A stretch of DNA of 64,000 bases from assembly GCA_963761725.1 (NCBI GenBank), contig CAVXHP010000006.1:637534-701533 (forward strand), given 5' to 3'. Shown one piece after another: positions 3,224-57,721 of this stretch. The number at the start of each line of letters is the position of its first letter. Position 1 is the first letter of the stretch. Origin of the DNA: an uncultured Cytophagales bacterium. GTDB taxonomy: Bacteria; Bacteroidota; Bacteroidia; Cytophagales; Bernardetiaceae. The notes under the pieces were generated by a model that worked only from the letters and a program-made list of their open reading frames with translations, was not told the origin of the DNA and ran no database searches. Made by a program: the position numbers and the translations under genes.

Positions 3224-5146
3224 TCAAACTCTTAAACCCAAAATAGTCATATCATCTCGTTGAGCTTCTCCATCTTTGAAGGTTTCAAATTCTTCCAAAA
3301 GTTCTTGTTTTTGAGTAGCAAAAGGATGTTCTTTGATTTGCTCTAGTAGTTGAACTAATCTTTGAGTTCCATATTTTGTTCTTTTAATGTTGTTTTGGTC
3401 TGCAAATCCGTCTGTTGTGAGGTATAATGTATCACCAACTTTCAAGTGAATGGTATGTGTTACAAACTGTTGATTTTCCTGTTTTTGCTTTCCTCCTATA
3501 CTTCTTTTATTTCCTTTTATTTTCAAAAATTGACCTTCTTGAATGTAATAAAGTGGACGATGTGCTCCTGCAAAAGTTACCTGTTTTCCAAAATCTGTAT
3601 TTTCGATAGCACAAACTGCTACTTCCATGCCATCATCATTTTTTCCTTCATTTTGCTTTAGAGCGTGCTGAATTTCTAAGTGCAAAATTTCCAAAATCAT
3701 AGCAGGGTCATAGATTTTGCTCTGACCAATTATTTTATTCAAAAGCGTTTGTCCAATCATTGACATAAACGCACCTGGCACTCCATGTCCCGTACAATCT
3801 ACAACAGCAACAAAGGTTATCCGCTTTTTCCGATATACCCAGTAAAAATCTCCAGAAACTACTTTTTGAGGTTTGTAAATAACAAAACTATCTGAAAAAT
3901 ATTCGTTCAGTTCTGATTCGGTAGGCAAAACAGCATCCTGAATCTGACGAGCATAGCGAATAGAATCCATAATCTGAACTTGTGAACGTTCAATTTCTTT
4001 TGTCTTTACCTGACTTTCCTGCAAACTATTCTGTATTTTATTGAGCATCAAACCAAAGTCTTTCGAAAGCCAACCTATTTCATCGTTTGTACTAATCGGA
4101 CTAATAGAATAATTTTCTGAAAAATCATTTTTTATCACTTTATGAATAGATTTGGAAAGTTTACGAACAGGCAGGCTCAATTTCTTACTAATCAGATAGC
4201 TGACAAACATTCCCAAAATAAAACACAAAACAACAATAGCACCTAATGTATATTTTATTCGAAACGTAATTTCTTTCGCTTGTTGTTTGCCTTCTTCGTT
4301 CATCTCTGCTATGATATCAGCAATTTGATAGGCTTTTTGCTGCGTTTGGTGACGCATTCCTTGATGAACATTCAGTCCAATTTGTTTTTCATAATCTACC
4401 ATATCCAGAAACGCATATTGATACTTCCGAAGCAAGTCTAACATTTCTTCTTTACGTTTTTTATCTTTTACAGTTGAGCGAATATCTGCACGAAGCTCTT
4501 GAACGGAAAGAGAAAGCTTGTCAATATATGCTTCTTCTTTACGAATCATAAAATCTTTTTCGTGCCTTCTTACCATCAGTAATTTTTCTCTTTTGAAAGG
4601 CAAATCAGAGTTTTCTATCTCGTGAATAAACTTACGCATCTGTCCTACCTTCCCAAAATCTTTATGTCCTTTTCGCTCTACAATTTGCACAAGATGTTCA
4701 AAAAGTACTTCATATTCTCCTACGGCTTGCTGAAGTTTTAACAATTTTTTGTCAATAGTATCATTACGTAGTTCTTCTCTACTCTTGAGAGCTATTAAAC
4801 CCTTTTGAACATTATATAATTTCTTAATACGAGTGTTCAAATATTGGCTTTCTCCTGTTTTGTAGAAATCATTATTAATAGTTTCGTAGGTAAAAAAATC
4901 CTTTTCTAATCCGTTTAGCGTCTGAATATCAATATAGAGTTGTGTAAGAAGGTCTGTAATATTTACTATACGTTCTCGTTTTTCGTAAAACATAAAGATA
5001 GAACCTATGATAAGTGCCGTAAGAATTAAATAAACACTAAAATAAATTTGCAATTTATTTTTTATCCCTCTAAATTTTTTATTTGGCTGAACAGAAGTGG
5101 TAGAATTTTGAATCATTTTTGAAAAGTATAATTGTAAGCCAAGCAT
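3224..5146 (-). CDS. Membrane sensor protein with HAMP domain and C-terminal PP2C/SpoIIE-type Ser/Thr phosphatase (RsbU-like)
   Basis: N-terminal TM segment and periplasmic region. Second TM followed by a HAMP-like segment. C-terminal PP2C motifs GDFYWV, VDCTGHGVPGAFMSMIG, DGFADQ. Confidence 0.8.
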   Translation of the reverse strand: MLGLQLYFSKMIQNSTTSVQPNKKFRGIKNKLQIYFSVYLILTALIIGSIFMFYEKRERIVNITDLLTQLYIDIQTLNGLEKDFFTYETINNDFYKTGESQYLNTRIKKLYNVQKGLIALKSREELRNDTIDKKLLKLQQAVGEYEVLFEHLVQIVERKGHKDFGKVGQMRKFIHEIENSDLPFKREKLLMVRRHEKDFMIRKEEAYIDKLSLSVQELRADIRSTVKDKKRKEEMLDLLRKYQYAFLDMVDYEKQIGLNVHQGMRHQTQQKAYQIADIIAEMNEEGKQQAKEITFRIKYTLGAIVVLCFILGMFVSYLISKKLSLPVRKLSKSIHKVIKNDFSENYSISPISTNDEIGWLSKDFGLMLNKIQNSLQESQVKTKEIERSQVQIMDSIRYARQIQDAVLPTESELNEYFSDSFVIYKPQKVVSGDFYWVYRKKRITFVAVVDCTGHGVPGAFMSMIGQTLLNKIIGQSKIYDPAMILEILHLEIQHALKQNEGKNDDGMEVAVCAIENTDFGKQVTFAGAHRPLYYIQEGQFLKIKGNKRSIGGKQKQENQQFVTHTIHLKVGDTLYLTTDGFADQNNIKRTKYGTQRLVQLLEQIKEHPFATQKQELLEEFETFKDGEAQRDDMTILGLRV

Positions 5147-5978
5147 ATTCTATAAGCCTTAATTCTTAGTTACAAAATTACTAGAAAGCTACTTTAAAAG
5201 ACCACAAAACGTTTTGCTAAATAATTACACTTTTATAAATTTTGATAAAACATAGAGTTTAAAAATAAAAAATACTTCTTTAAAGTTAGATTAATAAAAG
5301 AATAAACATAACTTTTTATTTTAAAAAAGAGTCAAATTATTTTTATTTGAAGATTTTGTAAATTAATTGTTACAGCTAAAAACAAGTTTTTTCTATTAAT
5401 AAGTTGCTCAACAAGAGAAAGAAAATAGGAAATAAATAGGTTTTGATACATTTTTATTTCCTAAAGATAAAGTAGTAATTATGTTAGATGAAAAAGAAGT
5501 TGCTAAATTTTTGAAAGGAAAAATAGTACTAGAAAATAACAGCACTTTCTACTTCAATACTTACGTTTTTTAAATAAATAAGTGCGTTATCATTTTTGAT
5601 TTGTGAGATTGATAAATCACCTGAATTATTATTAGTTTTATTTTGGCAAAACGATAAGGAAATAAAACAGAAGTAAAGCAGAGTAATAAAACTAAATTTG
5701 TGTAGAAGTGAACTCATAACATTACTAACTAGTGATTGAATTGCAAAAAAAGCTAAATAATTCTTAAAACCTTTATGATAACTTTTATAAAAAACGGTGT
5801 AAAAACTAATTTATACCGTTCTTAGGTCATACTATTTGTGATATGCCAAATGAATGTATATTGGCAAGATTTTTTCCTTATAGTTTGTGATAGTTTTGTA
5901 CATTTAATTTTTGAGTCAAAAATTAGCCTTTTTACTCACTCTCATTATTTATCTTAATTTACCTTACGATAGAATTTT

Positions 5979-16479: not shown

Positions 16480-16543
16480 AGCTGACACTTTCCAAGTGTC
16501 AGAATGTGATATGTATTTTATTGACACTTGGAAAGTGTCGGCT
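16480..16543. promoter_or_regulatory. Inverted repeat with internally palindromic 23-bp arms (AGCTGACACTTTCCAAGTGTCAG ... TTGACACTTGGAAAGTGTCGGCT) immediately upstream of the next gene
   Basis: Each arm is a 9-bp stem hairpin with a 3-nt loop (TCC vs GGA). Arms are reverse complements separated by an 18-nt AT-rich spacer. Confidence 0.45.
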
Positions 16544-19521: not shown

Positions 19522-19544
19522 GTTCTTAGCATCACGCTAAGAAC
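19522..19544. terminator. Hairpin (9-bp stem GTTCTTAGC/GCTAAGAAC) between convergent genes
   Basis: Perfect stem-loop read directly. Lies between the 3' ends of 18223..19503(+) and 19661..23041(-). Confidence 0.45.
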
Positions 19545-19615
19545 CTATAAAACTAAAAGCTTCACGCTGTATTTATTATACGAAATACAAAGCGTGACGC
19601 TTAAATACATTTAGG

Positions 19616-19635
19616 TTCGTAGTGGACACTACGAA
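19616..19635. terminator. Hairpin (TTCGTAG-tggaca-CTACGAA) between convergent genes
   Basis: 7-bp stem with 6-nt loop, 25 nt from the stop of the minus-strand giant gene. Confidence 0.45.
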
Positions 19636-19660
19636 CAGGTGGGATAAAATCTTATAAATC

Positions 19661-25430: not shown

Positions 25431-25671
25431 CAATATGAGTGTCATTTTGAGTCATTGACTTTTAGTTGCAGCCGCAACGTAACCTTGGTAGAAGCTCAAA
25501 AGCGTATTTCAATAGAGCTACAGAGTAGCGAAACTTGCAATTGGGCAATTAAGAATAAAGTTACGCTACGTTGTAGCTTTTCAAATCAATTTTATTTTTG
25601 TTCTACCAAGGTAAAGCTACTCTGTAGCTAATAAATGCCTATTTTGATTTCTGCCAATGACACTCATATTG
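25431..25671. mobile_element. MITE-like element copy 2 (241 bp, inverted orientation relative to copy 1), TSD AAATAT
   Basis: Same perfect 16-bp TIRs. Flanking direct repeat AAATAT (25425-25430 / 25672-25677). Internal AGCTACAGAGTAGCG and GGTTACG..GCAACT modules. Confidence 0.8.
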
Positions 25672-25929
25672 AAATATATCAGAATTAAAATAAAGTATTT
25701 TTAGTAAAATAATTAAGTGAAAGTAAGCAAAAACTATCGTTTATGGGAATTTTTTAGTTTAATTTATTAAAAATACTTTTCAAAATTGAAAATCCTAAAA
25801 TCTTTTTGTATCTTTTAGTTTATTTATTCTGTGTCGCTCGTAGGGATACAAGCAACGGTAGAGCAAGTTTTTGTTCTAACAAATTATCTTTTTTTAAAAT
25901 AAAACGGTTGTCTGACAATTTTTGTGGAA

Positions 25930-26001
25930 GTCGTTGGTGAGACACCAACAACGGAAAAAAAGAGTCATAAATACCTCGCCATTGTCGGTGTCTCACCGAC
26001 G
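25930..26001. repeat. REP-like palindromic pair (GTCGTTGGTGAGACACCAACAACGG and CGCCATTGTCGGTGTCTCACCGACG)
   Basis: Two hairpins with stems GTTGGTG/CACCAAC and GTCGGTG/CACCGAC. Related copies at 53301-53332 and in the element at 40735-40918. Confidence 0.55.
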
Positions 26002-26019
26002 ATTTTACCATCACCACTT

Positions 26020-28194
26020 ATGAATATTAAACATCTAAAAATTAGTCAAAAATTAGCCATTCTGTTTTCGGGACTTTTTGTGATGCTTTTACTTCACTAT
26101 TTTTTAGTTTTTAGGCTTGATGCAATTATTTTAGATGATGGAACAAAATTAGATATTGCACAACGCAATGGAATGTCTATTCAACAAGCCATTTTTTACC
26201 TTCGAAATGTAATAGATGGTAATCAACAAACCGACCTCAATGACCTTAGCAACCGAGTAGGTTTGGTTAATTCTAATTTGGATATTCTTCAAAATGGAGG
26301 TATTTATAAACTTCGTTTTGATGAAAAAATTCAAGTAGAACCTGTTTCAGAAGAGATTAGTAATCAGTTACTTTCCTTCCAACGCCTCTGGAAAGAATTT
26401 GACAAACGATTTACAAAAATAAGAACAACTAGCCAGTTACATCACGATAGTACACTTGTCTATTACATAAAAGAAAATACAACTGGTTCTATCAATCCAC
26501 TTCCAGTAGAAGAAGATTTATTTTCATTAGGAAACTTGGGTTTGGGCAATTTAGATGGAGATTTAGACGACTTAGGAAGTTTGGGAGATTTATCACTTTC
26601 CTTTGATGATAATACAACAAATACAGTTCTTTCTAGTACCTATAGAAAGATGGAATATCGGTTTGATAATGTTTTGAATGGAAGTATTGCACCCGATGTA
26701 AATTTTATTATTCGAAATGCTGAAAAACTGATTTTACTCAACAAAAATTTAGAAAACTCACTTTCTACTCGCTTGTATTACGACCAAGTTCGTTTACGTT
26801 ATTGGATGGTTGCACTTTTTTTGATTAATGCTATTGTTATTGGTGTAGGATATTGGTTCGTCGTAAAGACTTCTTTGCACCCACTTTTGAAAATTCGTCA
26901 GCTTATTAATCGTCTTGCAGCAGGAGATATTTCTCGTACACTTTCAGCTCGTTCTCACGATGAAGTAGGCAATTTGATTCAAGATTTAAGTCGTTTTTCT
27001 CAAGGATTAGAGCAGATTACAGATTTTGCAACACAGGTAGGAAAGGGAAATTTTGATGAAGAATTTGAGGTCAGAAGTAAAAAAGACAAACTAGGATTTG
27101 CACTTTTAGAGATGAGAAATGACTTAAAACAAAACTCTGAAGAAGACAAACGTAGGAATTGGTCTAATGAGGGAACAGCCAAATTTTCAGATATTTTGCG
27201 TCAGCATGCACAAGATATGCAAGCTCTTTCTTATCAACTTATTTCTAATTTAGTACATTATTTAGGAGCCAATCAAGGTGGAATTTATAGTTTGGAGAAA
27301 GAAGGAGAAGATGATACAAAGTCAAATTTAGTTTTAAAGGCTGCTTATGCCTACAACAAACAAAAGTTTATACAACAATCTATTCCTATACAGCAAGGTC
27401 TTTTAGGGCAGGCGGTTATGGAAAAGGGACATTTGTATTTTAATCAAATTTCGTCTGATTATATTCGTCTTACTTCTGGTCTGGGAGAAGCAACGCCAAG
27501 TTATTTGCTAATTGTTCCCTTGATTTCGAATAATGAAGTACATGGTGTAATTGAAATTGCTTCTTTTAAGCCGATTGAAGAATATCAACTTGCTTTTGTA
27601 ATTAAATTGTCTGAGAGTATTGCTGCTACGCTTTCCAATGTGAGAAGTAATGAGCGTACCAAATTACTCTTAGAAGAATCTCAAATGTATGCCGAACAAA
27701 TGGGAGCACAAGAAGAAGAAATGCGTCAGAGTATGGAAGAACTGACTACTACACAAGAAGAATTAGAACGCATTCAGAGAGATTTGAAAGAGCGATTGAC
27801 AAATTATGAATCCGTTGTGAATAGTACAAAAAGTATGATTTTGGCTCTTGATGGAGAATATAATATTAAGGTCTTAAATCGTTCGTATTCTATTATGTTA
27901 CGAAGGTTAAAAGGAACAGAAGTTCCGAATGGCTCAAATATTTTAGAGATTCTGACACAAGAACAACTAGAATATTGGAAACCTTATTACGAACGTGCCT
28001 TGGGTGGCGAATCCTTTACGATGGTTTCAAACGTTAAAAATTCGGAGTTTGAAGACGTCTATTACGAATTGGAATTCTTCCCTCTTATTACCACTAATGG
28101 CGTTATTACAGGTTTTGCCATCGTAAATAGAGATGTAACATCACTTAATCCTATTCGTTTTACAGAATATGAGGATATTATTCCGATTGAGTAA
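26020..28194 (+). CDS. Signal-transduction protein: TM, periplasmic PilJ/NarX-like sensing domain, HAMP, GAF, coiled coil, C-terminal PAS; no kinase or other enzymatic output domain
   Basis: HAMP (LINRLAAGDISRTLSARSHDEVGNLIQDLSRFSQGL). GAF (GLLGQAVMEKGHLYF...LIVPLISNNEVHGVIEIASF). C-terminal PAS-like region. The track start at 25924 lies in a REP-like hairpin, so the ATG at 26020 is preferred. Confidence 0.6.
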   Translation: MNIKHLKISQKLAILFSGLFVMLLLHYFLVFRLDAIILDDGTKLDIAQRNGMSIQQAIFYLRNVIDGNQQTDLNDLSNRVGLVNSNLDILQNGGIYKLRFDEKIQVEPVSEEISNQLLSFQRLWKEFDKRFTKIRTTSQLHHDSTLVYYIKENTTGSINPLPVEEDLFSLGNLGLGNLDGDLDDLGSLGDLSLSFDDNTTNTVLSSTYRKMEYRFDNVLNGSIAPDVNFIIRNAEKLILLNKNLENSLSTRLYYDQVRLRYWMVALFLINAIVIGVGYWFVVKTSLHPLLKIRQLINRLAAGDISRTLSARSHDEVGNLIQDLSRFSQGLEQITDFATQVGKGNFDEEFEVRSKKDKLGFALLEMRNDLKQNSEEDKRRNWSNEGTAKFSDILRQHAQDMQALSYQLISNLVHYLGANQGGIYSLEKEGEDDTKSNLVLKAAYAYNKQKFIQQSIPIQQGLLGQAVMEKGHLYFNQISSDYIRLTSGLGEATPSYLLIVPLISNNEVHGVIEIASFKPIEEYQLAFVIKLSESIAATLSNVRSNERTKLLLEESQMYAEQMGAQEEEMRQSMEELTTTQEELERIQRDLKERLTNYESVVNSTKSMILALDGEYNIKVLNRSYSIMLRRLKGTEVPNGSNILEILTQEQLEYWKPYYERALGGESFTMVSNVKNSEFEDVYYELEFFPLITTNGVITGFAIVNRDVTSLNPIRFTEYEDIIPIE

Positions 28195-32119: not shown

Positions 32120-32582
32120 TTTACTTTGAAACATTTTGTAACTGATGCTAATGTTCTTTTTAGTGGAAAAATTAGTGTAAACGAATAAATAGTACGACTT
32201 TTTGTTTATATACAATTTTAGCTCCCGAGTAGCTCACTTTGTTAGAACATTCAGCGAAGCAAATATGAAGAAATGATATTTATCAAAAACAGAATTGGTA
32301 ACCTAAAAGTTTATGAGATTATACACTTCGTTTAATCAAAAAGTTTGCAGCTTGTTGTTCTAAATCTTATCAATCTCTAATCAAAGCTATTATAAAGGTT
32401 AATTTATGCTACAAGGTGTAGATGAACCAAAGATACGTCCTTATTTAGCTTTATGCGATTAACTAGAAATTGAGTGAACATACATCAAGATGAAAAATTA
32501 TCTATTCATTTGATACAAGAAGGTTTTGATAAAGTAATTTCTTTGACAAACTTTTTGAGCGAAATATAAGCTCGTCATCTGG

Positions 32583-32660
32583 TGCAAGGTTTTACCTTGT
32601 ACCTACTATTTCAGCAAGCATATGCTTGAGAAATTATAAGCACAAGATAGAATCTTGCGC
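32583..32660. repeat. REP-like palindromic element (CAAGGTTTTACCTTG; GCAAGCATATGCTTG; CAAGATAGAATCTTG), family shared with 36727-36807
   Basis: Three adjacent perfect or near-perfect palindromes. About 45 nt is near-identical, in inverted orientation, to 36727-36773. Confidence 0.55.
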
Positions 32661-32675
32661 TAGAGATAAAATAAT

Positions 32676-36693: not shown

Positions 36694-36726
36694 TTTTTTA
36701 TAAAATCATTTTCCTTCGCAAGATTC

Positions 36727-36807
36727 TATCTTGTGCTTGTAAATTCGCAAGCATATGCTTGCAGAAAAAGAGTGTCCAAGCAATATGCTTGAACAAGAGA
36801 TACATAT
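36727..36807. repeat. REP-like palindromic element between the LytS-like kinase and LytTR regulator genes (GCAAGATTCTATCTTG; GCAAGCATATGCTTGC; CAAGCAATATGCTTG)
   Basis: Perfect 16-bp palindrome GCAAGCATATGCTTGC plus two flanking palindromes. Same family as 32583-32660. Confidence 0.55.
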
Positions 36808-38259: not shown

Positions 38260-40688
38260 ATGAAACTTCTTTTTTCTACTTTCGCACTTTTTATTTTTAC
38301 TTCATTTGCTCCTCTTTTTCCTCTTATTGCTCAAAATTATTCTATTATAGGAATTGCAGAGTCTGAAACAGAAGAGCCTATTTCTTTTGCTGCTGTCGGC
38401 TTAATGAATGCTTCTGATTCTTCTCTTGCAAAAGCTACCGTTGCTGACGAAGAAGGAAAATTTCGTTTAGTAGGAATTCAAAAAGGGAATTATTTCCTAA
38501 CTATTTCAAGTGTTGGATATGATAAATATACTCAAAAAATTACTGTTTCTGCTACTTCAAATCAAACTATTGATTTGGAAAAAATACTTGTAAAATCAAA
38601 TAATGTCTTAGATGCCGTTGAAATAAAAGCTCAAAAACCAATGGTAGAAGTTTTTGCAGACAAAACCGTTTTTAATGTAGAGGGAACAATCGCAGCAACA
38701 GGTTCATCAGCCTTAGATGTAATGAGAAAAGCACCAGGTGTAATGTTAGATAACAATGATAATTTAATGGTAGAAGGAAAGACAGGCGTACAGATTTTTA
38801 TAGATGGAAAACGCTCCATTTTGCAAGGTGAAGCACTTACCAATTATCTCAACACATTACAGTCTTCCGATATTGAAAGCATTGAAATTATTACTCAACC
38901 TTCTTCCAAATACGATGCAGCAGGAAGTGCAGGAATTTTGAATATCAAATTAAAGAAAAACAAGAATTTTGGCACAAATGGAAGTATAGGAGTTGGCTAT
39001 TCAGTTTGGGATAATAATAGAATGAATGGTTCGCTTTCACTCAACAATCGCACAAAAAAGACAAATACTTTTTTGAGTTATAGTAATAGTTTTGGTAAAA
39101 CGGGAAGTTTTATCAATTTATACAGACAACAAAACGAATCTAATTTTTGATGCTAGAACTGATAATGTAAGAGAACAAAATAGCCATAATTTTAGAGCAG
39201 GAACGGATATTTTTGCCAGCAAAAAAAGTACATTCGGAATTTTGATTGATGCTAATTTGAGTGACAATTATGCAGAAACAGACTCTAGAACGCCAATTAT
39301 TAATCAAACTACTAACGAAACGCTACAAGTTTTGAAAGCAGATAATACAGACGACTCTAATTTTTATAATCTTTTGGGAAACCTCAATTATCGTTATGAA
39401 GATACATTGGGACGTTCGTTTAATGTGGATTTTGATTATGGAAAATACAATTCGGATAGACAAAATTACCAGCCTAATCTGTATTTCAATGGAAATGAAG
39501 CTCAAGTTTTGAGTAGTGTAATTTATGAAATGATTACGCCTACTACGATTGATATTCTGACAGGACAAGCAGATTACGAACAAAATTTTTTGAAAGGAAA
39601 ATTAGCTGTGGGAGTAAAAGCATCGCAAGTAAAGACAGATAATAGCTTTTGAATTTTATGATGTTTTGGATGGGAATTCTGTTTTCAATGAAGACAAAAG
39701 CAATCAGTTTTTTTATACTGAAAACATCAATGCAGCGTACTTTAATTACAACAGAAAGTGGAAAAAAATGAATGTTCAGGTAGGTTTGCGTGTAGAAAAC
39801 ACAGTTTCTGATGGAAGACTAGAAAGTACACAGGTAGAAAACAACGAGCGAGTAAAACGAAATTACACAAACCTTTTTCCTTCTGGCGGACTTACTTACA
39901 ATCTAAATCGTCAGAATTCTTTTGCTCTTACATACAGTCGTAGAATTGAGCGACCAAATTATCAAAACCTAAACCCTTTTGAAATGCAGATAGATGAGCT
40001 TAGTATAAGAAAAGGAAATGCCTTTTTGCAGCCTCAATATGTAGATAATATAAAATTTTCGCATACCTATAAATACACGCTCAATACTTCGATTAGTTAT
40101 AGTCATGTTCAAGACTTTTTTGCACAAGTTACGCAAGCACAAGACGAGCGAAGAAGTGTTCTGCAAACTCAAAATGTAGCTAGTCAAGAAGTATATAGTT
40201 TTTCGTTGAGTTATCCTTTTGAGATTACCAAGTGGTGGAATGTTTATGCAAGTATGAATGCGTATCATAGTGTTTATGAAGGAACAACAGAGGCATTTTT
40301 GTCAGTTTCACAAAGTACAGTTACAGGTTATGGACAGAATACATTTTCGCTTCCCAAAGAGTTTAAGTTTGAAGTTTCGGGTTGGGTAAGTTCGCCTTCC
40401 GTTTGGGGTGGAACGTATCTAACAAAAACTTTGGGTTCTCTTAATTTAGCGTTACAGAAGAAGTTTTTAGATGATAAGTTATCACTTCGTTTGTCTCTGA
40501 ATGATGTTTTGTTTACCTCTCCTTGGCGTGGCGATACAGAGTTTGATAATGTAATTATTCGTGGAAATGGTGGTTGGGAAAGCCGTCAGTTTAGAATAAA
40601 TTTGAGTTATAATTTTGGTAGCAAACAAGTAAAGTCAGCTAGGAAACGCAAGACAGCAGCAGAAGATGAGAGTGGAAGGATTGAATAA
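38260..40688 (+). pseudogene. TonB-dependent outer-membrane receptor (carboxypeptidase-regulatory-like N-domain + plug + beta-barrel), split into 3 ORFs (38260-39150, 39092-39652, 39666-40688)
   Basis: N-terminal CarbopepD_reg-like beta-sandwich (IGIAESETEEPISFAAVGL). Plug region (DAVEIKAQKPMVEV...DVMRKAPGV). Beta-barrel-rich C-terminus. Overlapping ORFs in different frames; total ~820 aa. Confidence 0.65.
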
Positions 40689-40734
40689 GAACTTGATGTA
40701 AAATTTTGAAAACTAAAAACTCCTTATTTCCCGA

Positions 40735-40918
40735 GCCGTTGTTGGTCTTTAACTTCGGCTTGCCGTTGTGATTACCAACAACAGACATACACGAACAATT
40801 TATGAACTCACCACCAAAACTAAAAAGTTAAATGCGAAAAAAGTGTTTATCTTAGCTTACACATGTTTGAGTTGTTGGTCATCGTAACGGCAAGCCGAAA
40901 CTAAAGACCAACAACGGC
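40735..40918. repeat. ~184-bp element bounded by ~47-bp imperfect inverted repeats (GCCGTTGTTGGTCTTTAACTTCGGCTTGCCGTTGTGATTACCAACAAC ... GTTGTTGGTCATCGTAACGGCAAGCCGAAACTAAAGACCAACAACGGC)
   Basis: Long arms are reverse complements with a few mismatches. Shares the CCGTTGTTGGT/ACCAACAACGG core with the hairpins at 25930 and 53301. Confidence 0.6.
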
Positions 40919-41065
40919 ATTGTAGCATTTAAACCTAATAAAAAAACTCTTTATTCCTTCCATAAAAAAGAAATAAAGAGTTTAAAATTAAATTTACAAA
41001 AAAAGCAATTGGCATTTAATCTTCATTCATCATATGAATCATTTACCAATAAGTTCAAAAAAATA

Positions 41066-42571
41066 TTACATCGCAATAGCAAAAAATCCTCTTCTACCTG
41101 TTGGATGAAAACCTTCAATCAAAACGCCTCCTGTTTTTCCTTCTAAAAGTCGGATTACATCAGCAGAGTTATCTACTTTTTCTTTGTCTATATGCGTAAT
41201 AATAAATCCTTCAGGAACTTGTGCCTCCTTAAACTTTCCTTTCTCAATACTTGCTATCTTTACACCTGTTGTTCCTATTTTGGTAGCATCTTCTGGAGAA
41301 ATATTCTGGATATCAATTCCTAAAGTCTGAATTTTCATTACTTTCCCAGCTTCATTGGTAACAAGTTCGGTAGTTCCCAAACGATTTTTGAGTTCTACAT
41401 TGGTGTTTCGTTCTTTTCCATTTCTAAGATAAACTACCGCCACCTTATCACCTGGACGTTTTCTTGCAATACGCTCTTGAAGCTGTGCCGAAGTGTTTAC
41501 TTGAACGCCATCTATTTCAATGATTACATCACCTGTTTCTAGACCTGCTTCTATGGCTCCACTTTTTTCGGTTACACCTGCTACATAAATTCCACGTACA
41601 ACAGACAAATTCATTTCCTTGGATAATTCTGCTGTTACATCTCTGATTTGAACTCCCAAAAGACCACGCTGGACAATTCCATGTTCTCTCAAATCGGTTA
41701 CTACTTTTTTCACAATTCCAATCGGAACAGCAAATGAATATCCTGCAAAAGAACCTGTTGTGGAAGCAATAGCTGTATTTATTCCTACTAATTCTCCATT
41801 TACATTTACCAACGCACCACCACTGTTACCAGGATTTACGGCTGCATCAGTTTGTATAAATGCTTCTACTCCCAAACCATCTCTACGACGCAAAATATTT
41901 ATATTTCTAGCCTTTGCACTCACAATTCCTGCCGTTACGGTAGAAGTAAGGTCAAACGGATTTCCGACAGCAAGTACCCACTCACCTACTTGTAAATCAT
42001 CTGAATTTCCAAAAGGAACGGGTTTTAATTCTTCATCAGCATCAATTTTCAGAAGTGCCAAATCTGTACTTGGATCTGTTCCGATAAGCTCTGCCGTATA
42101 ACTTTTTTGATTATTCATTACTACATCAATACGAGTAGCATTTTCCACAACGTGATTATTAGTTACGATATAACCATCTTGCTGAATAATAACTCCCGAA
42201 CCCGAACCCATTCTAACCTCTCCATTATTCTGATTTCTATCTGGCATTTGTCCACCAAAAAAATCTTTAAAAAGATCTTCCATAGATTGTTGCTGACGAT
42301 TACTCATAGCCGAAGGATTTCCAAAGGTCTGAATATGAACAACGGCTGGTGTTGCTCGTTTGGCAGCTTCTACAAAATTCAAATTTTGAGGAGAAAGGTT
42401 TGGACTTGCAGGGTCTGGATTTCCAAAACCTGTTTGTAAAAAAGGTTGATTGACTTGTAAAGCTCCGTTTTGATAAACTGGTGCAAAAAAGTTTAGATAA
42501 ATACCCAAAGCAACTGTTGCACCCACAACACCAGAAAATAAGGCGATAAAAAATAATCCTATTCGTTTCAT
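41066..42571 (-). CDS. htrA: Periplasmic serine endoprotease DegP/HtrA family (trypsin-like domain + 2 PDZ)
   Basis: Catalytic triad context TNNHVV (His), D, GNSGGAL (Ser). Two PDZ-like regions. N-terminal signal/TM. Confidence 0.85.
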   Translation of the reverse strand: MKRIGLFFIALFSGVVGATVALGIYLNFFAPVYQNGALQVNQPFLQTGFGNPDPASPNLSPQNLNFVEAAKRATPAVVHIQTFGNPSAMSNRQQQSMEDLFKDFFGGQMPDRNQNNGEVRMGSGSGVIIQQDGYIVTNNHVVENATRIDVVMNNQKSYTAELIGTDPSTDLALLKIDADEELKPVPFGNSDDLQVGEWVLAVGNPFDLTSTVTAGIVSAKARNINILRRRDGLGVEAFIQTDAAVNPGNSGGALVNVNGELVGINTAIASTTGSFAGYSFAVPIGIVKKVVTDLREHGIVQRGLLGVQIRDVTAELSKEMNLSVVRGIYVAGVTEKSGAIEAGLETGDVIIEIDGVQVNTSAQLQERIARKRPGDKVAVVYLRNGKERNTNVELKNRLGTTELVTNEAGKVMKIQTLGIDIQNISPEDATKIGTTGVKIASIEKGKFKEAQVPEGFIITHIDKEKVDNSADVIRLLEGKTGGVLIEGFHPTGRRGFFAIAM

Positions 42572-52473: not shown

Positions 52474-53367
52474 CTAACTGATAACTGATAACTGAAAAGC
52501 CATTTCTTGCTGAATTTGCTGTGCTGCTTTGGCTGCCATTTCTGCAAAATCTCTGTCTTTGCTGGCATAGATAATCTGACGAGAAGAGTTTATCAGAAGT
52601 CCACATTCTTTTGTAAGTCCTGCTTTTGATACTTCTGCTAAATTTCCTCCTTGAGCTCCAACTCCTGGAACCAACAAAAAATGATTGGGTATTATTTTGC
52701 GAATATTCTCTATGTATTCTGCCTTTGTTGCACCCACAACATACATTAGATTTTCTTCTGTCCCCCATTCTTTACTTTTTTCTAAAACTTCTTCATATAC
52801 TTTTTTTCCATTTTTGAGTTCTAACATTTCAAAATCTTCTGCACCCGAATTTGAAGTAAGAGCTAACAGAATTGTCCATTTATTTTTTATTTCTAAAAAA
52901 GGTTTTACAGAGTCTTCTCCCATATAAGGTGCAACTGTAATGGCATCACAATTCAAGTTTTCAAGAAATGCTTTTGCATATTGAGTAGAAGTATTTCCAA
53001 TATCACCTCGTTTTGCATCAGCAATAATAAAGACATTGTGAGGTAAGTATTCAATTGTTTTTTGCAGACTTTCCCACCCTTTTGTTCCTAGAGCTTCGTA
53101 AAAAGCAGTGTTTAGTTTGTAAGAAACAGCATATTTTTCTGTCGCATCAATAATGCGTTTATTAAACTCAAAAATAGGGTCTTTTGCATTTAATAAATGA
53201 AACGGAATTTTTTTAATATCACTATCCAAACCTACACAAAGGTAAGATTCTTTAGCTTTTATTTGAGAGATGAGTTTAGTGCGATTCACTTTTAATATAT
53301 GTTGTGTCGTTGGTGGAGACACCAACAACGGCGAAGAGAAATGAGTTTTGAAACCAATTTTATACAA
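52474..53367 (-). CDS. pyrF: Orotidine 5'-phosphate decarboxylase (type 2)
   Basis: [35 protein letters not shown] motifs. The N-terminal ~25 codons of the track ORF are encoded by a REP-like hairpin, so the true start is probably further 3'. The C-terminal codons overlap the heptamer repeat. Confidence 0.85.
53301..53332. repeat. REP-like hairpin GTTGTGTCGTTGGTGGAGACACCAACAACGGC
   Basis: Near-identical to 25930-25954, and shares the CCGTTGTTGGT/ACCAACAACGG core with the 40735-40918 element. Confidence 0.55.
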
Positions 53368-57593: not shown

Positions 57594-57721
57594 TACACTA
57601 AAAAAACTCAACCAAAAACTTCAAGCAGAAATTAAGGAGGTTACAACTCTGACAGTTAGAAACTGTCAGCTATGTGACACAATGAAGGCATCACTTTTGC
57701 GTTTTGCTAACAAAATGTATC

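What the first reader, a model, noticed from the sequence alone, without database searches (positions are those of the whole stretch)
40735..40918. Family of REP-like palindromes sharing a CCGTTGTTGGT/ACCAACAACGG core, including a 184-bp element with 47-bp inverted-repeat arms
The hairpin GTCGTTGGTGAGACACCAACAACGG occurs at 25930-25954, with a second hairpin at 25977-26001. A near-identical copy at 53301-53332 overlaps the annotated 5' end of pyrF. A much larger element at 40735-40918 has long imperfect inverted arms built on the same core. These are dispersed structured repeats (REP/BIME-like). Such elements can act as mRNA stabilisers or terminators, and can be substrates for REP-associated tyrosine transposases. 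In two places they generate false N-terminal extensions in ORF calls.
Basis: seen in the sequence. Interest (0 to 1): 0.5.

Follow-up and report, generated by a model that had tools for sequence, protein, structure and literature searches.

The report
Bacteroidota REP hairpins and REPIN-like doublet
These are copies of a small hairpin-forming repeat (a REP element) that in many Bacteroidota genomes brackets its own REP-associated transposase gene, and the 184-bp element is a mobile-looking pair of enlarged copies; this is a known kind of selfish or domesticated DNA, so the finding is real but fairly ordinary.

Summary
The window holds five hairpin units at three intergenic loci, all built on GT(T/C)GTTGGT…ACCAACAACGG. 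They include a 184-bp element (40735-40918) with 48-nt arms that are 90% complementary.

The short hairpin GTTGTTGGTG-AnAA-CACCAACAAC-GGC is not species-specific. In 12 of those loci, and in 5 of 5 loci picked by protein homology alone, two inverted copies bracket a ~175-aa HUH/Y1 transposase-like gene. That is the arrangement of a REP-associated tyrosine transposase (RAYT). A supplementary table in Quentin et al. 2018 already lists this hairpin for a subclass 2.6 RAYT of Runella.

The 184-bp element is a REPIN-like inverted doublet of a long-loop variant of the hairpin. Homologous copies of about 185-200 bp, ending exactly at GCC…GGC, occur in low-GC metagenome contigs. The element is absent from the orthologous site in two Bernardetia relatives.

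Covariation supports two separate arm hairpins rather than one long hairpin. No RAYT gene lies in the window, and the copy number in this genome could not be measured.

Verdict: a new member of a known kind, of modest interest.

The parts
40735..40918 (.). 184-bp REPIN-like element: two long-loop REP units in inverted orientation, with the GCC/GGC tags at the outer ends and an 88-nt spacer
   Evidence: Inverted repeat I1. Full-length homologues in metagenome contigs have homology that stops exactly at these ends. The element is absent from the orthologous site in L289 and L290.
40735..40782 (-). Left arm: a 48-nt long-loop REP unit. Read on the minus strand it is GTTGTTGGTAATCACAACGGCAAGCCGAAGTTAAAGACCAACAACGGC. 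It carries the 'AC..GT' variant of the inner helix.
   Evidence: The intra-arm helix is supported by compensatory changes.
40783..40870 (.). 88-nt spacer of the element, partly conserved in homologous copies from metagenomes
   Evidence: Alignment A1. BLAST covers the whole element at 74-84% identity.
40871..40918 (+). Right arm: a 48-nt long-loop REP unit, GTTGTTGGTCATCGTAACGGCAAGCCGAAACTAAAGACCAACAACGGC ('GT..AC' variant). It is identical to the commonest arm in the metagenome contigs (16 copies).
25930..25954 (+). Short REP unit GTCGTTGGTG-AGA-CACCAACAAC-GG, in a divergent intergenic region
25978..26003 (-). Short REP unit, diverged and in inverted orientation to the previous unit: ATCGTCGGTG-AGA-CACCGACAAT-GGC. 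It has a compensatory C:G pair. Together the two units form a tail-to-tail doublet.
53306..53332 (+). Short REP unit GTCGTTGGTG-GAGA-CACCAACAAC-GGC, between the WYL-regulator gene and pyrF (both on the minus strand)
   Evidence: The same GTC…G(A/G)GA…GGC subtype occurs in Bernardetia loci L125, L155 and L233.

Best explanation
The hairpins are REP elements of the family that partners the Bacteroidota-type REP-associated tyrosine transposase (TnpA_REP/RAYT subclass 2.6 of Quentin et al. 2018, which equals Bertels group 5).

**The unit.** Each unit has a 10-bp stem GTTGTTGGTG/CACCAACAAC, a 3-5 nt A-rich loop and an unpaired GGC foot. On the other strand this reads as a 5'-GCC foot, and it takes the place of the canonical GTAG.

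**The 184-bp element.** It is a REPIN-like doublet of two enlarged units. In each arm the loop carries an extra CGGC-AA-GCCG mini-hairpin. The two units are inverted with their feet pointing outward, which is the same polarity as the two REPs that bracket RAYT genes.

**Likely mechanism (inferred, not shown here).**
- A single-copy HUH/Y1 RAYT binds the folded hairpin in single-stranded DNA.
- It cleaves next to the foot and moves or copies REP units and doublets without creating target-site duplications.
- The copies settle in intergenic DNA, often just after genes.

**In this window.** The doublet sits at a rearranged junction between the htrA terminator and a truncated terminator of a TonB-receptor-like gene. 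It may now serve as the 3' structure of that transcript.
For: **Shown**
Positions the pattern did not constrain complete the structure. GTT precedes the match in 89-94% of copies, and C follows GG in 81%.
2. Twelve of the 119 8-kb loci carry a ~175-aa ORF with NH(I/L/M)H … WERN … YIHxNP motifs, and in at least 9 of them it is directly bracketed by two inverted hairpins with feet outward. About 0.3 such loci would be expected for a gene present at 1-2 copies per genome.
3. Reciprocal test: all 5 homologues chosen by protein similarity alone are bracketed in the same way. Some of these carry compensatory stem variants, such as GGAG/CTCC.
4. Matches of these proteins:
   - NCBIfam REP_Tyr_transpos, E about 1e-19.
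   - Their only PDB match is E. coli TnpA_REP 4ER8.
   - JGI and NCBI name the homologues RayT.
5. PMC6006769 Table S1 lists GCCGTTGTTGGTGTTATCACCAACAACC for the subclass 2.6 protein AEI49282.1 of Runella slithyformis.
6. Only 20% of copies lie in long stop-free stretches, against 81% of all bases.
7. The 184-bp element has full-length homologues in at least 7 metagenome contigs. Similarity ends at GCC…GGC and no flanking duplications are seen.
8. Two Bernardetia relatives lack the element at the orthologous site.
9. Covariation supports each arm's own hairpin: 8 pairs changed on both sides, 96.6% of cells paired, 0 of 500 shuffles as good (arms alone).
Against: - No RAYT gene lies in the window, in the Bernardetia loci held, or in the low-GC metagenome contigs. 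Whether this genome has the cognate enzyme is unknown.
- Quentin's table lists three subclass 2.6 RAYTs for Flexibacter (Bernardetia) litoralis, all with other REP types.
- Only 5 units at 3 loci are visible in 64 kb. Three 21.5-kb loci from relatives hold 0-1 copies, so the family may be sparse or a relic here.
- The proteins score below the NCBIfam equivalog cut-off (69 against 80 bits). Only 1 of 3 passes the Pfam Y1_Tnp cut-off.
- No transposition, cleavage or transcript end was observed. The mechanism is inferred from E. coli TnpA_REP and the IS200/IS605 family.
- The 119 loci were selected for an exact core, so the apparent sequence invariance across taxa is partly due to how they were found.
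Confidence: 0.8

Rival explanations
1. Relic or orphan REPs. The family in this Bernardetia genome descends from RAYT-mobilised REPs, but the cognate RAYT has been lost. The copies would then be immobile leftovers, possibly kept for a host use.
For: - No RAYT in the window or in any Bernardetia sequence held.
- The three subclass 2.6 RAYTs listed for F. litoralis have other REP types.
- The local short units are imperfect. They have GTC instead of GTT, which gives a C·A mismatch, and one has a GGA foot.
- Density in the relatives' loci is low.
Against: - The long-loop arm is identical in the window and in 16 metagenome copies, and many contigs of one sample series carry it. That suggests recent amplification in a related low-GC organism.
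- The element is absent from the orthologous site of congeners, which suggests recent arrival.
- Only 64 kb of the genome was seen.
Confidence: 0.3
2. The 184-bp element is a conventional MITE. In that case its 48-bp arms are terminal inverted repeats recognised by a DDE transposase of a full-length insertion sequence.
For: It has long terminal inverted repeats, a size typical of MITEs, and multiple copies with defined ends.
Against: - No target-site duplication flanks the window copy or the 7 aligned full-length copies.
- The arm ends are the same stem and foot that bracket HUH/Y1 RAYT genes.
- Each arm is an independently conserved hairpin with compensatory changes, while the two arms do not covary with each other.
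- No DDE transposase was found next to any copy.
Confidence: 0.04
3. The hairpins are primarily RNA or transcription signals (terminators, 3'-end protectors or a small RNA) kept by selection on gene expression, and the link with transposases is incidental.
For: - All three window loci are intergenic.
- The 184-bp element starts 47 nt after the stop codon of the TonB-receptor-like gene. It replaces the lost right half of that gene's terminator hairpin.
- REPs in E. coli are known to affect 3'UTRs (my own knowledge; see also the bioRxiv title listed).
Against: - None of the units is followed by a T-run. The only terminator-like site in the region is the separate htrA terminator at 40983-40944.
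- There is no Rfam match.
- One locus lies in a divergent promoter region, not at a 3' end.
- The transposase association is far above chance and holds in both directions.
- A role in RNA would be secondary and would not exclude the REP reading.
Confidence: 0.1

Closest known systems
REPs flanking TnpA_REP/RAYT subclass 2.6 (Bertels group 5) in Bacteroidetes; Quentin et al. 2018, BMC Genomics 19:475 (PMC6006769)
   Same: - The hairpin has the same sequence as the REP listed for Runella slithyformis AEI49282.1 (GCCGTTGTTGGTGTTATCACCAACAACC).
- It lacks the GT[AG]G foot, as the paper describes for this subclass.
- It brackets a ~175-aa protein with NH[LIV]H and YIH[QN]NP motifs.
- Copies occur elsewhere in the genome.
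   Different: - The paper records this hairpin for one species, in a supplementary table. Here it is seen in more than 100 loci over many families of Bacteroidota and in Ignavibacteria.
- The Bernardetia copies carry a GTC variant.
- The 48-nt long-loop form and its 184-bp doublet are not in that table.
- The proteins here have WE, not the WQ given for subclass 2.6, so the subclass assignment rests on the shared REP rather than on a tree.
REPINs of Pseudomonas fluorescens (Bertels and Rainey 2011, PMC3116915)
   Same: Two REPs in inverted orientation with a short spacer behave as one multi-copy unit with defined ends. The presumed mobiliser is a single-copy RAYT.
   Different: - The arms here are 48-nt composite hairpins and the spacer is 88 nt.
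- The two arms are consistently different variants (AC..GT against GT..AC).
- Covariation supports two separate hairpins, not the long REPIN hairpin.
- The foot is GCC/GGC, not GTAG.
E. coli REP/BIME and TnpA_REP (PDB 4ER8; Messing et al. 2012, PMC3479197)
   Same: - An HUH/Y1 enzyme gene bracketed by inverted REP hairpins (a REPtron).
- 4ER8 is the only PDB sequence match of the associated proteins.
- Doublets are made of unlike REP variants, as in BIMEs.
   Different: - Protein similarity is very low (E = 7e-5 with a profile).
- The stem is a perfect A/T-rich 10-bp palindrome rather than a G+C-rich imperfect one.
- There is no GTAG guide tetranucleotide.
CGTC-tagged REPs (Di Nocera et al. 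2013, PMC3733652)
   Same: Short palindromes with 8-9 bp stems, 4-5 nt loops and a short unpaired tail, reported in Bacteroidetes and Chlorobi among other phyla. Inverted dimers are common.
   Different: - The consensus here has no CGTC tag. Only the diverged unit at 25978-26003 happens to contain CGTC.
- CGTC REPs were reported to lack any associated transposase, whereas this family brackets one.

Membership tests
REP (repetitive extragenic palindrome) | Short (20-40 nt) palindromic unit able to form a stem-loop | tested here: met
   The units have 9-10 bp stems (with the GTC mismatch, the DNA fold pairs 7 bp in two of the three short window units). DNA folds are -6 to -11 kcal/mol with z from -2.4 to -4.3. 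Compensatory stem variants occur across genomes.
REP (repetitive extragenic palindrome) | Extragenic location | tested here: met
   All 3 window loci are intergenic. In 119 loci, 31 of 154 copies lie in stop-free stretches of at least 150 codons, against 81% of all bases.
REP (repetitive extragenic palindrome) | Many dispersed copies within one genome | tested here: inconclusive
   Only 64 kb of this genome is available: 5 units at 3 loci. The long-loop form is on about 28 contigs, mostly from one metagenome series.
REP (repetitive extragenic palindrome) | Canonical 5' GT[AG]G foot | tested here: not met
   The foot is GCC on one strand and GGC on the other. C follows GG in 81% of copies. This matches the 'atypical' REPs that PMC6006769 describes for subclass 2.6.
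REPtron (REP plus RAYT) | The REP brackets a RAYT gene in inverted orientation | tested here: met
   Seen in 12 of 119 hairpin-selected loci (at least 9 bracketed on both sides) and in 5 of 5 protein-selected loci. This was shown in other genomes, not in this window.
REPtron (REP plus RAYT) | A cognate RAYT is present in the same genome | not testable with these tools
There is no RAYT in the window or in the related loci held. Two window proteins, and the database protein P0121 reported as 100% identical to one of them, are not on record for contig look-up.
RAYT / TnpA_REP (HUH Y1 transposase) | HUH and catalytic Y motifs, and sequence membership in the family | tested here: inconclusive
   - The motifs N-H-x-H and Y-I-H-x-N-P are invariant in alignment A3.
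- NCBIfam NF047646 matches at E about 1e-19, but at 67-69 bits against a cut-off of 80.
- Pfam Y1_Tnp passes the cut-off in 1 of 3 proteins.
- 4ER8 is the sole PDB match, E = 7e-5.
- Source databases name the homologues RayT.
REPIN | An inverted REP doublet that is multi-copy as a unit and has defined ends | tested here: met
   At least 7 full-length homologues (186-200 bp) and 2 truncated ones were found. Flanks are unrelated beyond GCC…GGC.
REPIN | The doublet is selected as one long hairpin | tested here: not met
   For inter-arm pairing, 0 pairs changed on both sides and 91.3% of cells paired, which is below the shuffle mean. For intra-arm pairing, 8 pairs changed on both sides, 96.6% paired, and 0 of 500 shuffles did as well.
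MITE of a DDE insertion sequence | Target-site duplication flanking the terminal inverted repeats | tested here: not met
   No direct repeats flank any of the 8 aligned full-length copies. The 14-nt repeat 40715/40942 turned out to be two similar terminators, not a duplication.
Intrinsic terminator | G+C-rich hairpin followed by a T-run | tested here: not met
   No REP unit was called. The only site found is the separate htrA terminator at 40983-40944.
Any Rfam RNA family | Match at the gathering score | tested here: not met
   There are 0 matches in the whole window.

The most novel reading that the evidence does not exclude
One REP hairpin (10-bp stem plus GGC foot) has stayed almost unchanged across most of Bacteroidota and into Ignavibacteria, while its partner RAYT diverged to about 50% amino-acid identity. 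That would point to an ancient, mainly vertically inherited and tightly constrained RAYT-REP partnership, unlike the fast-changing, species-specific REPs of Proteobacteria. The Bernardetia lineage would then have evolved a composite 48-nt 'hairpin-within-hairpin' REP that amplifies as hetero-doublets, perhaps without a local cognate RAYT.
Probability: 0.25. Interest if true: 0.5.

Novelty: new member of a known kind. Interest (0 to 1): 0.3.

Why it matters
- **Annotation.** It explains three odd intergenic palindromes and two probably over-extended ORF calls in this Bernardetia-like genome.
- **A simple signature.** GTTGTTGGTG-N3-5-CACCAACAAC-GGC is an easily searched marker of the Bacteroidota RAYT clade. 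It could be used to annotate REPs, avoid false start codons and explain assembly breaks in Bacteroidota MAGs.
- **Test material.** The wide conservation of the hairpin, and the clear two-hairpin covariation in the doublet, give a convenient substrate for testing how a non-GTAG RAYT recognises its DNA.
- **Limit.** It does not reveal a new kind of system.

Tried and rejected
- **Rfam.** A scan of the whole window at gathering thresholds found nothing.
- **Loose viral scan.** Loci L001-L120 are noise.
- **Specific viral scan.** It gave 11 hits. Most are one conserved phage sequence without the GTT prefix or GGC foot, and only L294 looks like a true REP. Phages are therefore not an evident vehicle.
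- **Literature search by sequence.** Searching for the hairpin as text found only unrelated primers and aptamers.
- **CGTC-tagged REP family.** Considered and rejected, because the consensus lacks the tag and that family has no transposase.
- **Possible target-site duplication.** The 14-nt direct repeat at 40715/40942 was considered as a target duplication. Alignment with relatives shows it is the retained left half of the receptor-gene terminator plus the similar htrA terminator.
- **Locating the source genome.** Exact-protein look-ups of two window proteins, and of P0121 (reported as 100% identical to one of them), failed. Genome-wide copy number and RAYT presence therefore remain untested.
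- **RAYT search in held sequence.** tblastn with 10 RAYTs against the window, the Bernardetia loci and the metagenome contigs gave no hit with an E-value below 0.07, so nothing significant.

Full report
**1. The observation**

The sequences are as described. The repeat finder reports arms 40735-40782 and 40871-40918 that are 48 nt long, 90% complementary and 88 nt apart. The 206-nt region folds far better than shuffles on both strands (z = -12.9 and -9.2).

The short hairpins are:
- 25930-25954 (+).
- 25978-26003 (-), a diverged copy with a compensatory T:A to C:G pair.
- 53306-53332 (+).

The 11-mer core with at most one mismatch occurs 5 times against 0.5 expected. A relaxed scan found nothing else in the 64 kb.

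Each 48-nt arm is itself a hairpin. The same outer stem GTTGTTGGT/ACCAACAAC encloses a 26-27-nt insert with a CGGC-AA-GCCG mini-hairpin.

All three loci are intergenic:
- One lies between convergent genes: a TonB-receptor-like gene ending at 40688 and an htrA-like gene ending at 41066.
- One lies between divergent genes (25446-26022).
- One lies between two minus-strand genes, a WYL regulator and pyrF.

Rfam finds nothing in the window.

**2. The hairpin is not species-specific**

The loci include:
- Hymenobacteraceae: Rufibacter, Pontibacter, Nibribacter.
- Mucilaginibacter.
- Chitinophagaceae and Saprospiraceae.
- Cytophagales: Runella, Bernardetia, Chryseolinea, Thermoflexibacter.
- Gelidibacter and Paludibacter.
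- More than ten Ignavibacteria MAGs.
- A few Chlorobiota, Verrucomicrobiota and Eubacteriales records. Two or three of these look like coding or chance matches.

The 155 instances give the consensus GTTGTTGGTG-A.AA-CACCAACAAC-GGC. At positions the pattern did not fix, GTT precedes in 89-94% of copies, which completes a 10-bp stem. C follows GG in 81%. Nothing is conserved beyond that.

Only 20% of copies lie in stop-free stretches of at least 150 codons, although such stretches cover 81% of the loci.

The window itself is not among the retrieved loci.

**3. The link to a transposase**

A motif search of six-frame translations found a ~175-aa ORF in 12 of the 119 8-kb loci. It carries NH(I/L/M)H … WERN … YIHxNP. 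In at least nine of these loci the gene is directly bracketed, within about 10-150 bp, by two hairpins in inverted orientation with the GCC/GGC feet pointing outward.

For a gene present at 1-2 copies per 5-Mb genome, about 0.3 such loci would be expected by chance. That expectation is my own estimate, using the copy number in PMC6006769 Table 1.

Evidence on what the proteins are:
- NCBIfam REP_Tyr_transpos matches at E about 1e-19 but below its cut-off.
- Pfam Y1_Tnp matches weakly.
- The only PDB sequence match is E. coli TnpA_REP 4ER8.
- A profile search finds more than 7,500 homologues, many named RayT by JGI or NCBI.

As a reciprocal test I took five homologues chosen by protein score and contig length only. 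All five are bracketed in the same way. In Mucilaginibacter sp. X4EP1, two gene copies are each bracketed by a variant with a compensatory GGAG/CTCC change.

The ten aligned proteins share only 46-54% identity with the first one.

**4. Literature**

Quentin et al. 2018 (PMC6006769) define TnpA_Y1 subclass 2.6, which equals Bertels group 5. [quoted passage not shown]

Their Table S1 lists GCCGTTGTTGGTGTTATCACCAACAACC for Runella slithyformis AEI49282.1, which is exactly this hairpin. The kind is therefore known, and this sequence has been recorded once.

Bertels et al. 2017 note that group 5 is flanked by 16-mers about as frequent as those flanking insertion sequences.

**5. The 184-bp element**

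A metagenome scan for the inner mini-hairpin plus the right stem (CGGCAAGCCGN{6,12}ACCAACAACGG) returned 43 contigs. Of these, 28 are low-GC (26-37%) and carry the 48-nt arm. The other 15 are G+C-rich (49-69%) and lack the arm, so they look like chance matches. The commonest arm, with 16 copies, is identical to the window's right arm.

BLAST and MAFFT show full-length homologues of 186-200 bp in L240, L241, L242, L247, L252, L266 and L278, and truncated ones in L257 and L275. The spacer is partly conserved, and similarity ends exactly at GCC…GGC. No flanking direct repeats are seen.

The arms come in two variants, AC..GT and GT..AC, around the inner helix. L264 has a third, CCC..GGG. These are compensatory within an arm.
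- On 14 distinct arms, 95.8% of cells pair, 4 pairs change on both sides, and 0 of 500 shuffles reach the score.
- On the full-element alignment, the two-hairpin model has 8 pairs changed on both sides and 96.6% pairing.
- The single long inter-arm hairpin has none and pairs worse than shuffles.

The conserved unit is therefore the individual REP hairpin. In most of the aligned full-length copies (six of eight) the element pairs two unlike variants.

**6. Presence or absence at the orthologous site**

The window's HtrA is 86% identical to that of Bernardetia litoralis DSM 6794, and 89-91% identical to those of two unnamed assemblies.

In those two assemblies (L289, L290) the order sensor kinase, htrA, TonB receptor is kept. 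The htrA-receptor spacer there holds 1.2-1.3 kb with 2-3 small ORFs and no REP element.

Alignment shows that homology to the window ends at the htrA terminator on one side. On the other side it resumes at the left half of the receptor gene's terminator hairpin. In the window, the 184-bp element plus about 15 nt fills the gap, and the right half of that terminator is missing.

This is an insertion or replacement polymorphism between congeners, which is consistent with mobility. It also explains the 14-nt direct repeat 40715/40942 as two similar terminators rather than a target duplication.

A more distant syntenic contig (L264, about 68% nucleotide identity) has a single long-loop unit downstream of the intact receptor gene.

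**7. Mechanism: what is shown and what is inferred**

Shown:
- The structure, with covariation.
- The extragenic bias.
- The REPtron arrangement in many genomes.
- Defined element ends without target duplications.
- The polymorphic site.

Inferred from E. coli TnpA_REP and IS200/IS605 biochemistry (established knowledge, PMC3479197): the RAYT binds the folded hairpin in single-stranded DNA, cleaves next to the foot, and spreads units or doublets.

Not shown:
- Any activity.
- The presence of the RAYT in this genome. None was found in the window, the Bernardetia loci or the metagenome contigs.
- Any effect on transcripts. The units lack T-runs, and the only terminator call nearby is the separate htrA terminator.

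**8. Verdict**

The finding is a new member of a known kind, with a lineage-specific composite variant. The breadth of conservation of one REP sequence across a phylum is the only mildly surprising point, and it is partly a result of how the loci were selected. Interest is 0.3.

Noticed in passing
window 32579-32602 (+), 32640-32663 (-), 36713-36736 (+): A second, unrelated REP family: CT(A/G)G(C/T)GCAAG(A/G)TT(C/T)TA(C/T)CTTGT(G/A)C. The copy at 32640-32663 is identical to the REP listed for the Flexibacter litoralis RAYT AFM02620.1 in PMC6006769 Table S1. The first two copies form an inverted doublet. GCAAGCATATGCTTGC palindromes lie beside them.
   Followed up: partly
window 38260-40688: The TonB-dependent-receptor-like gene is split into three overlapping ORFs (38260-39150, 39092-39652, 39666-40688). 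Its orthologues are intact at 805-809 aa in L264, L289 and L290. It is either a pseudogene or the result of sequencing frameshifts.
   Followed up: partly
window 40689-41065, compared with L289:11507-12775 and L290:11507-12921: Two Bernardetia relatives carry 2-3 small ORFs (266-274 aa plus 58-66 aa, no Pfam hit) between htrA and the receptor gene. The window lacks them and has the REP doublet instead. Only the left half of the receptor-gene terminator (40715-40730) survives.
   Followed up: yes
window 40944-40983 (-): A well-formed intrinsic terminator of the htrA-like gene (18-pair stem followed by a T-run), conserved in L289 and L290. It is separate from the REP element, which begins 25 nt beyond it.
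   Followed up: yes
L217:3798-3841, L232:3886-3927, L239:22-71, L216:1628-1682, L158:98-163 and others: In many genomes the REP is followed within 4-30 nt by an extra copy of only its right half plus foot (CACCAACAACGGC). This could be a footprint of cleavage and rejoining, or of slippage.
   Followed up: no
window 19522-19636; 16482-16502; 57649-57669: Other perfect hairpins:
- A nested set: GTTCTTAGC…GCTAAGAAC, CACGCT…AGCGTG and GTTCGTAGTG…CACTACGAAC.
- Two CTGACA…TGTCAG hairpins.

These may belong to further small repeat families.
   Followed up: no
L284:2299-2826 and 5001-5528 (Mucilaginibacter sp. X4EP1, CP183229.1): Two RAYT gene copies lie 2.2 kb apart. Each is bracketed by a REP variant with a compensatory stem change (TTGTTGGAG…CTCCAACAA). 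In this genome the RAYT is not single-copy.
   Followed up: partly
L290:15362-15401: A Bernardetia relative has yet another loop variant of the REP, with a 14-nt loop: CTTGTTGGTG-TCGCTTCGCTAAAA-CACCAACAAA-GGC. It lies upstream of the TonB-receptor gene.
   Followed up: no
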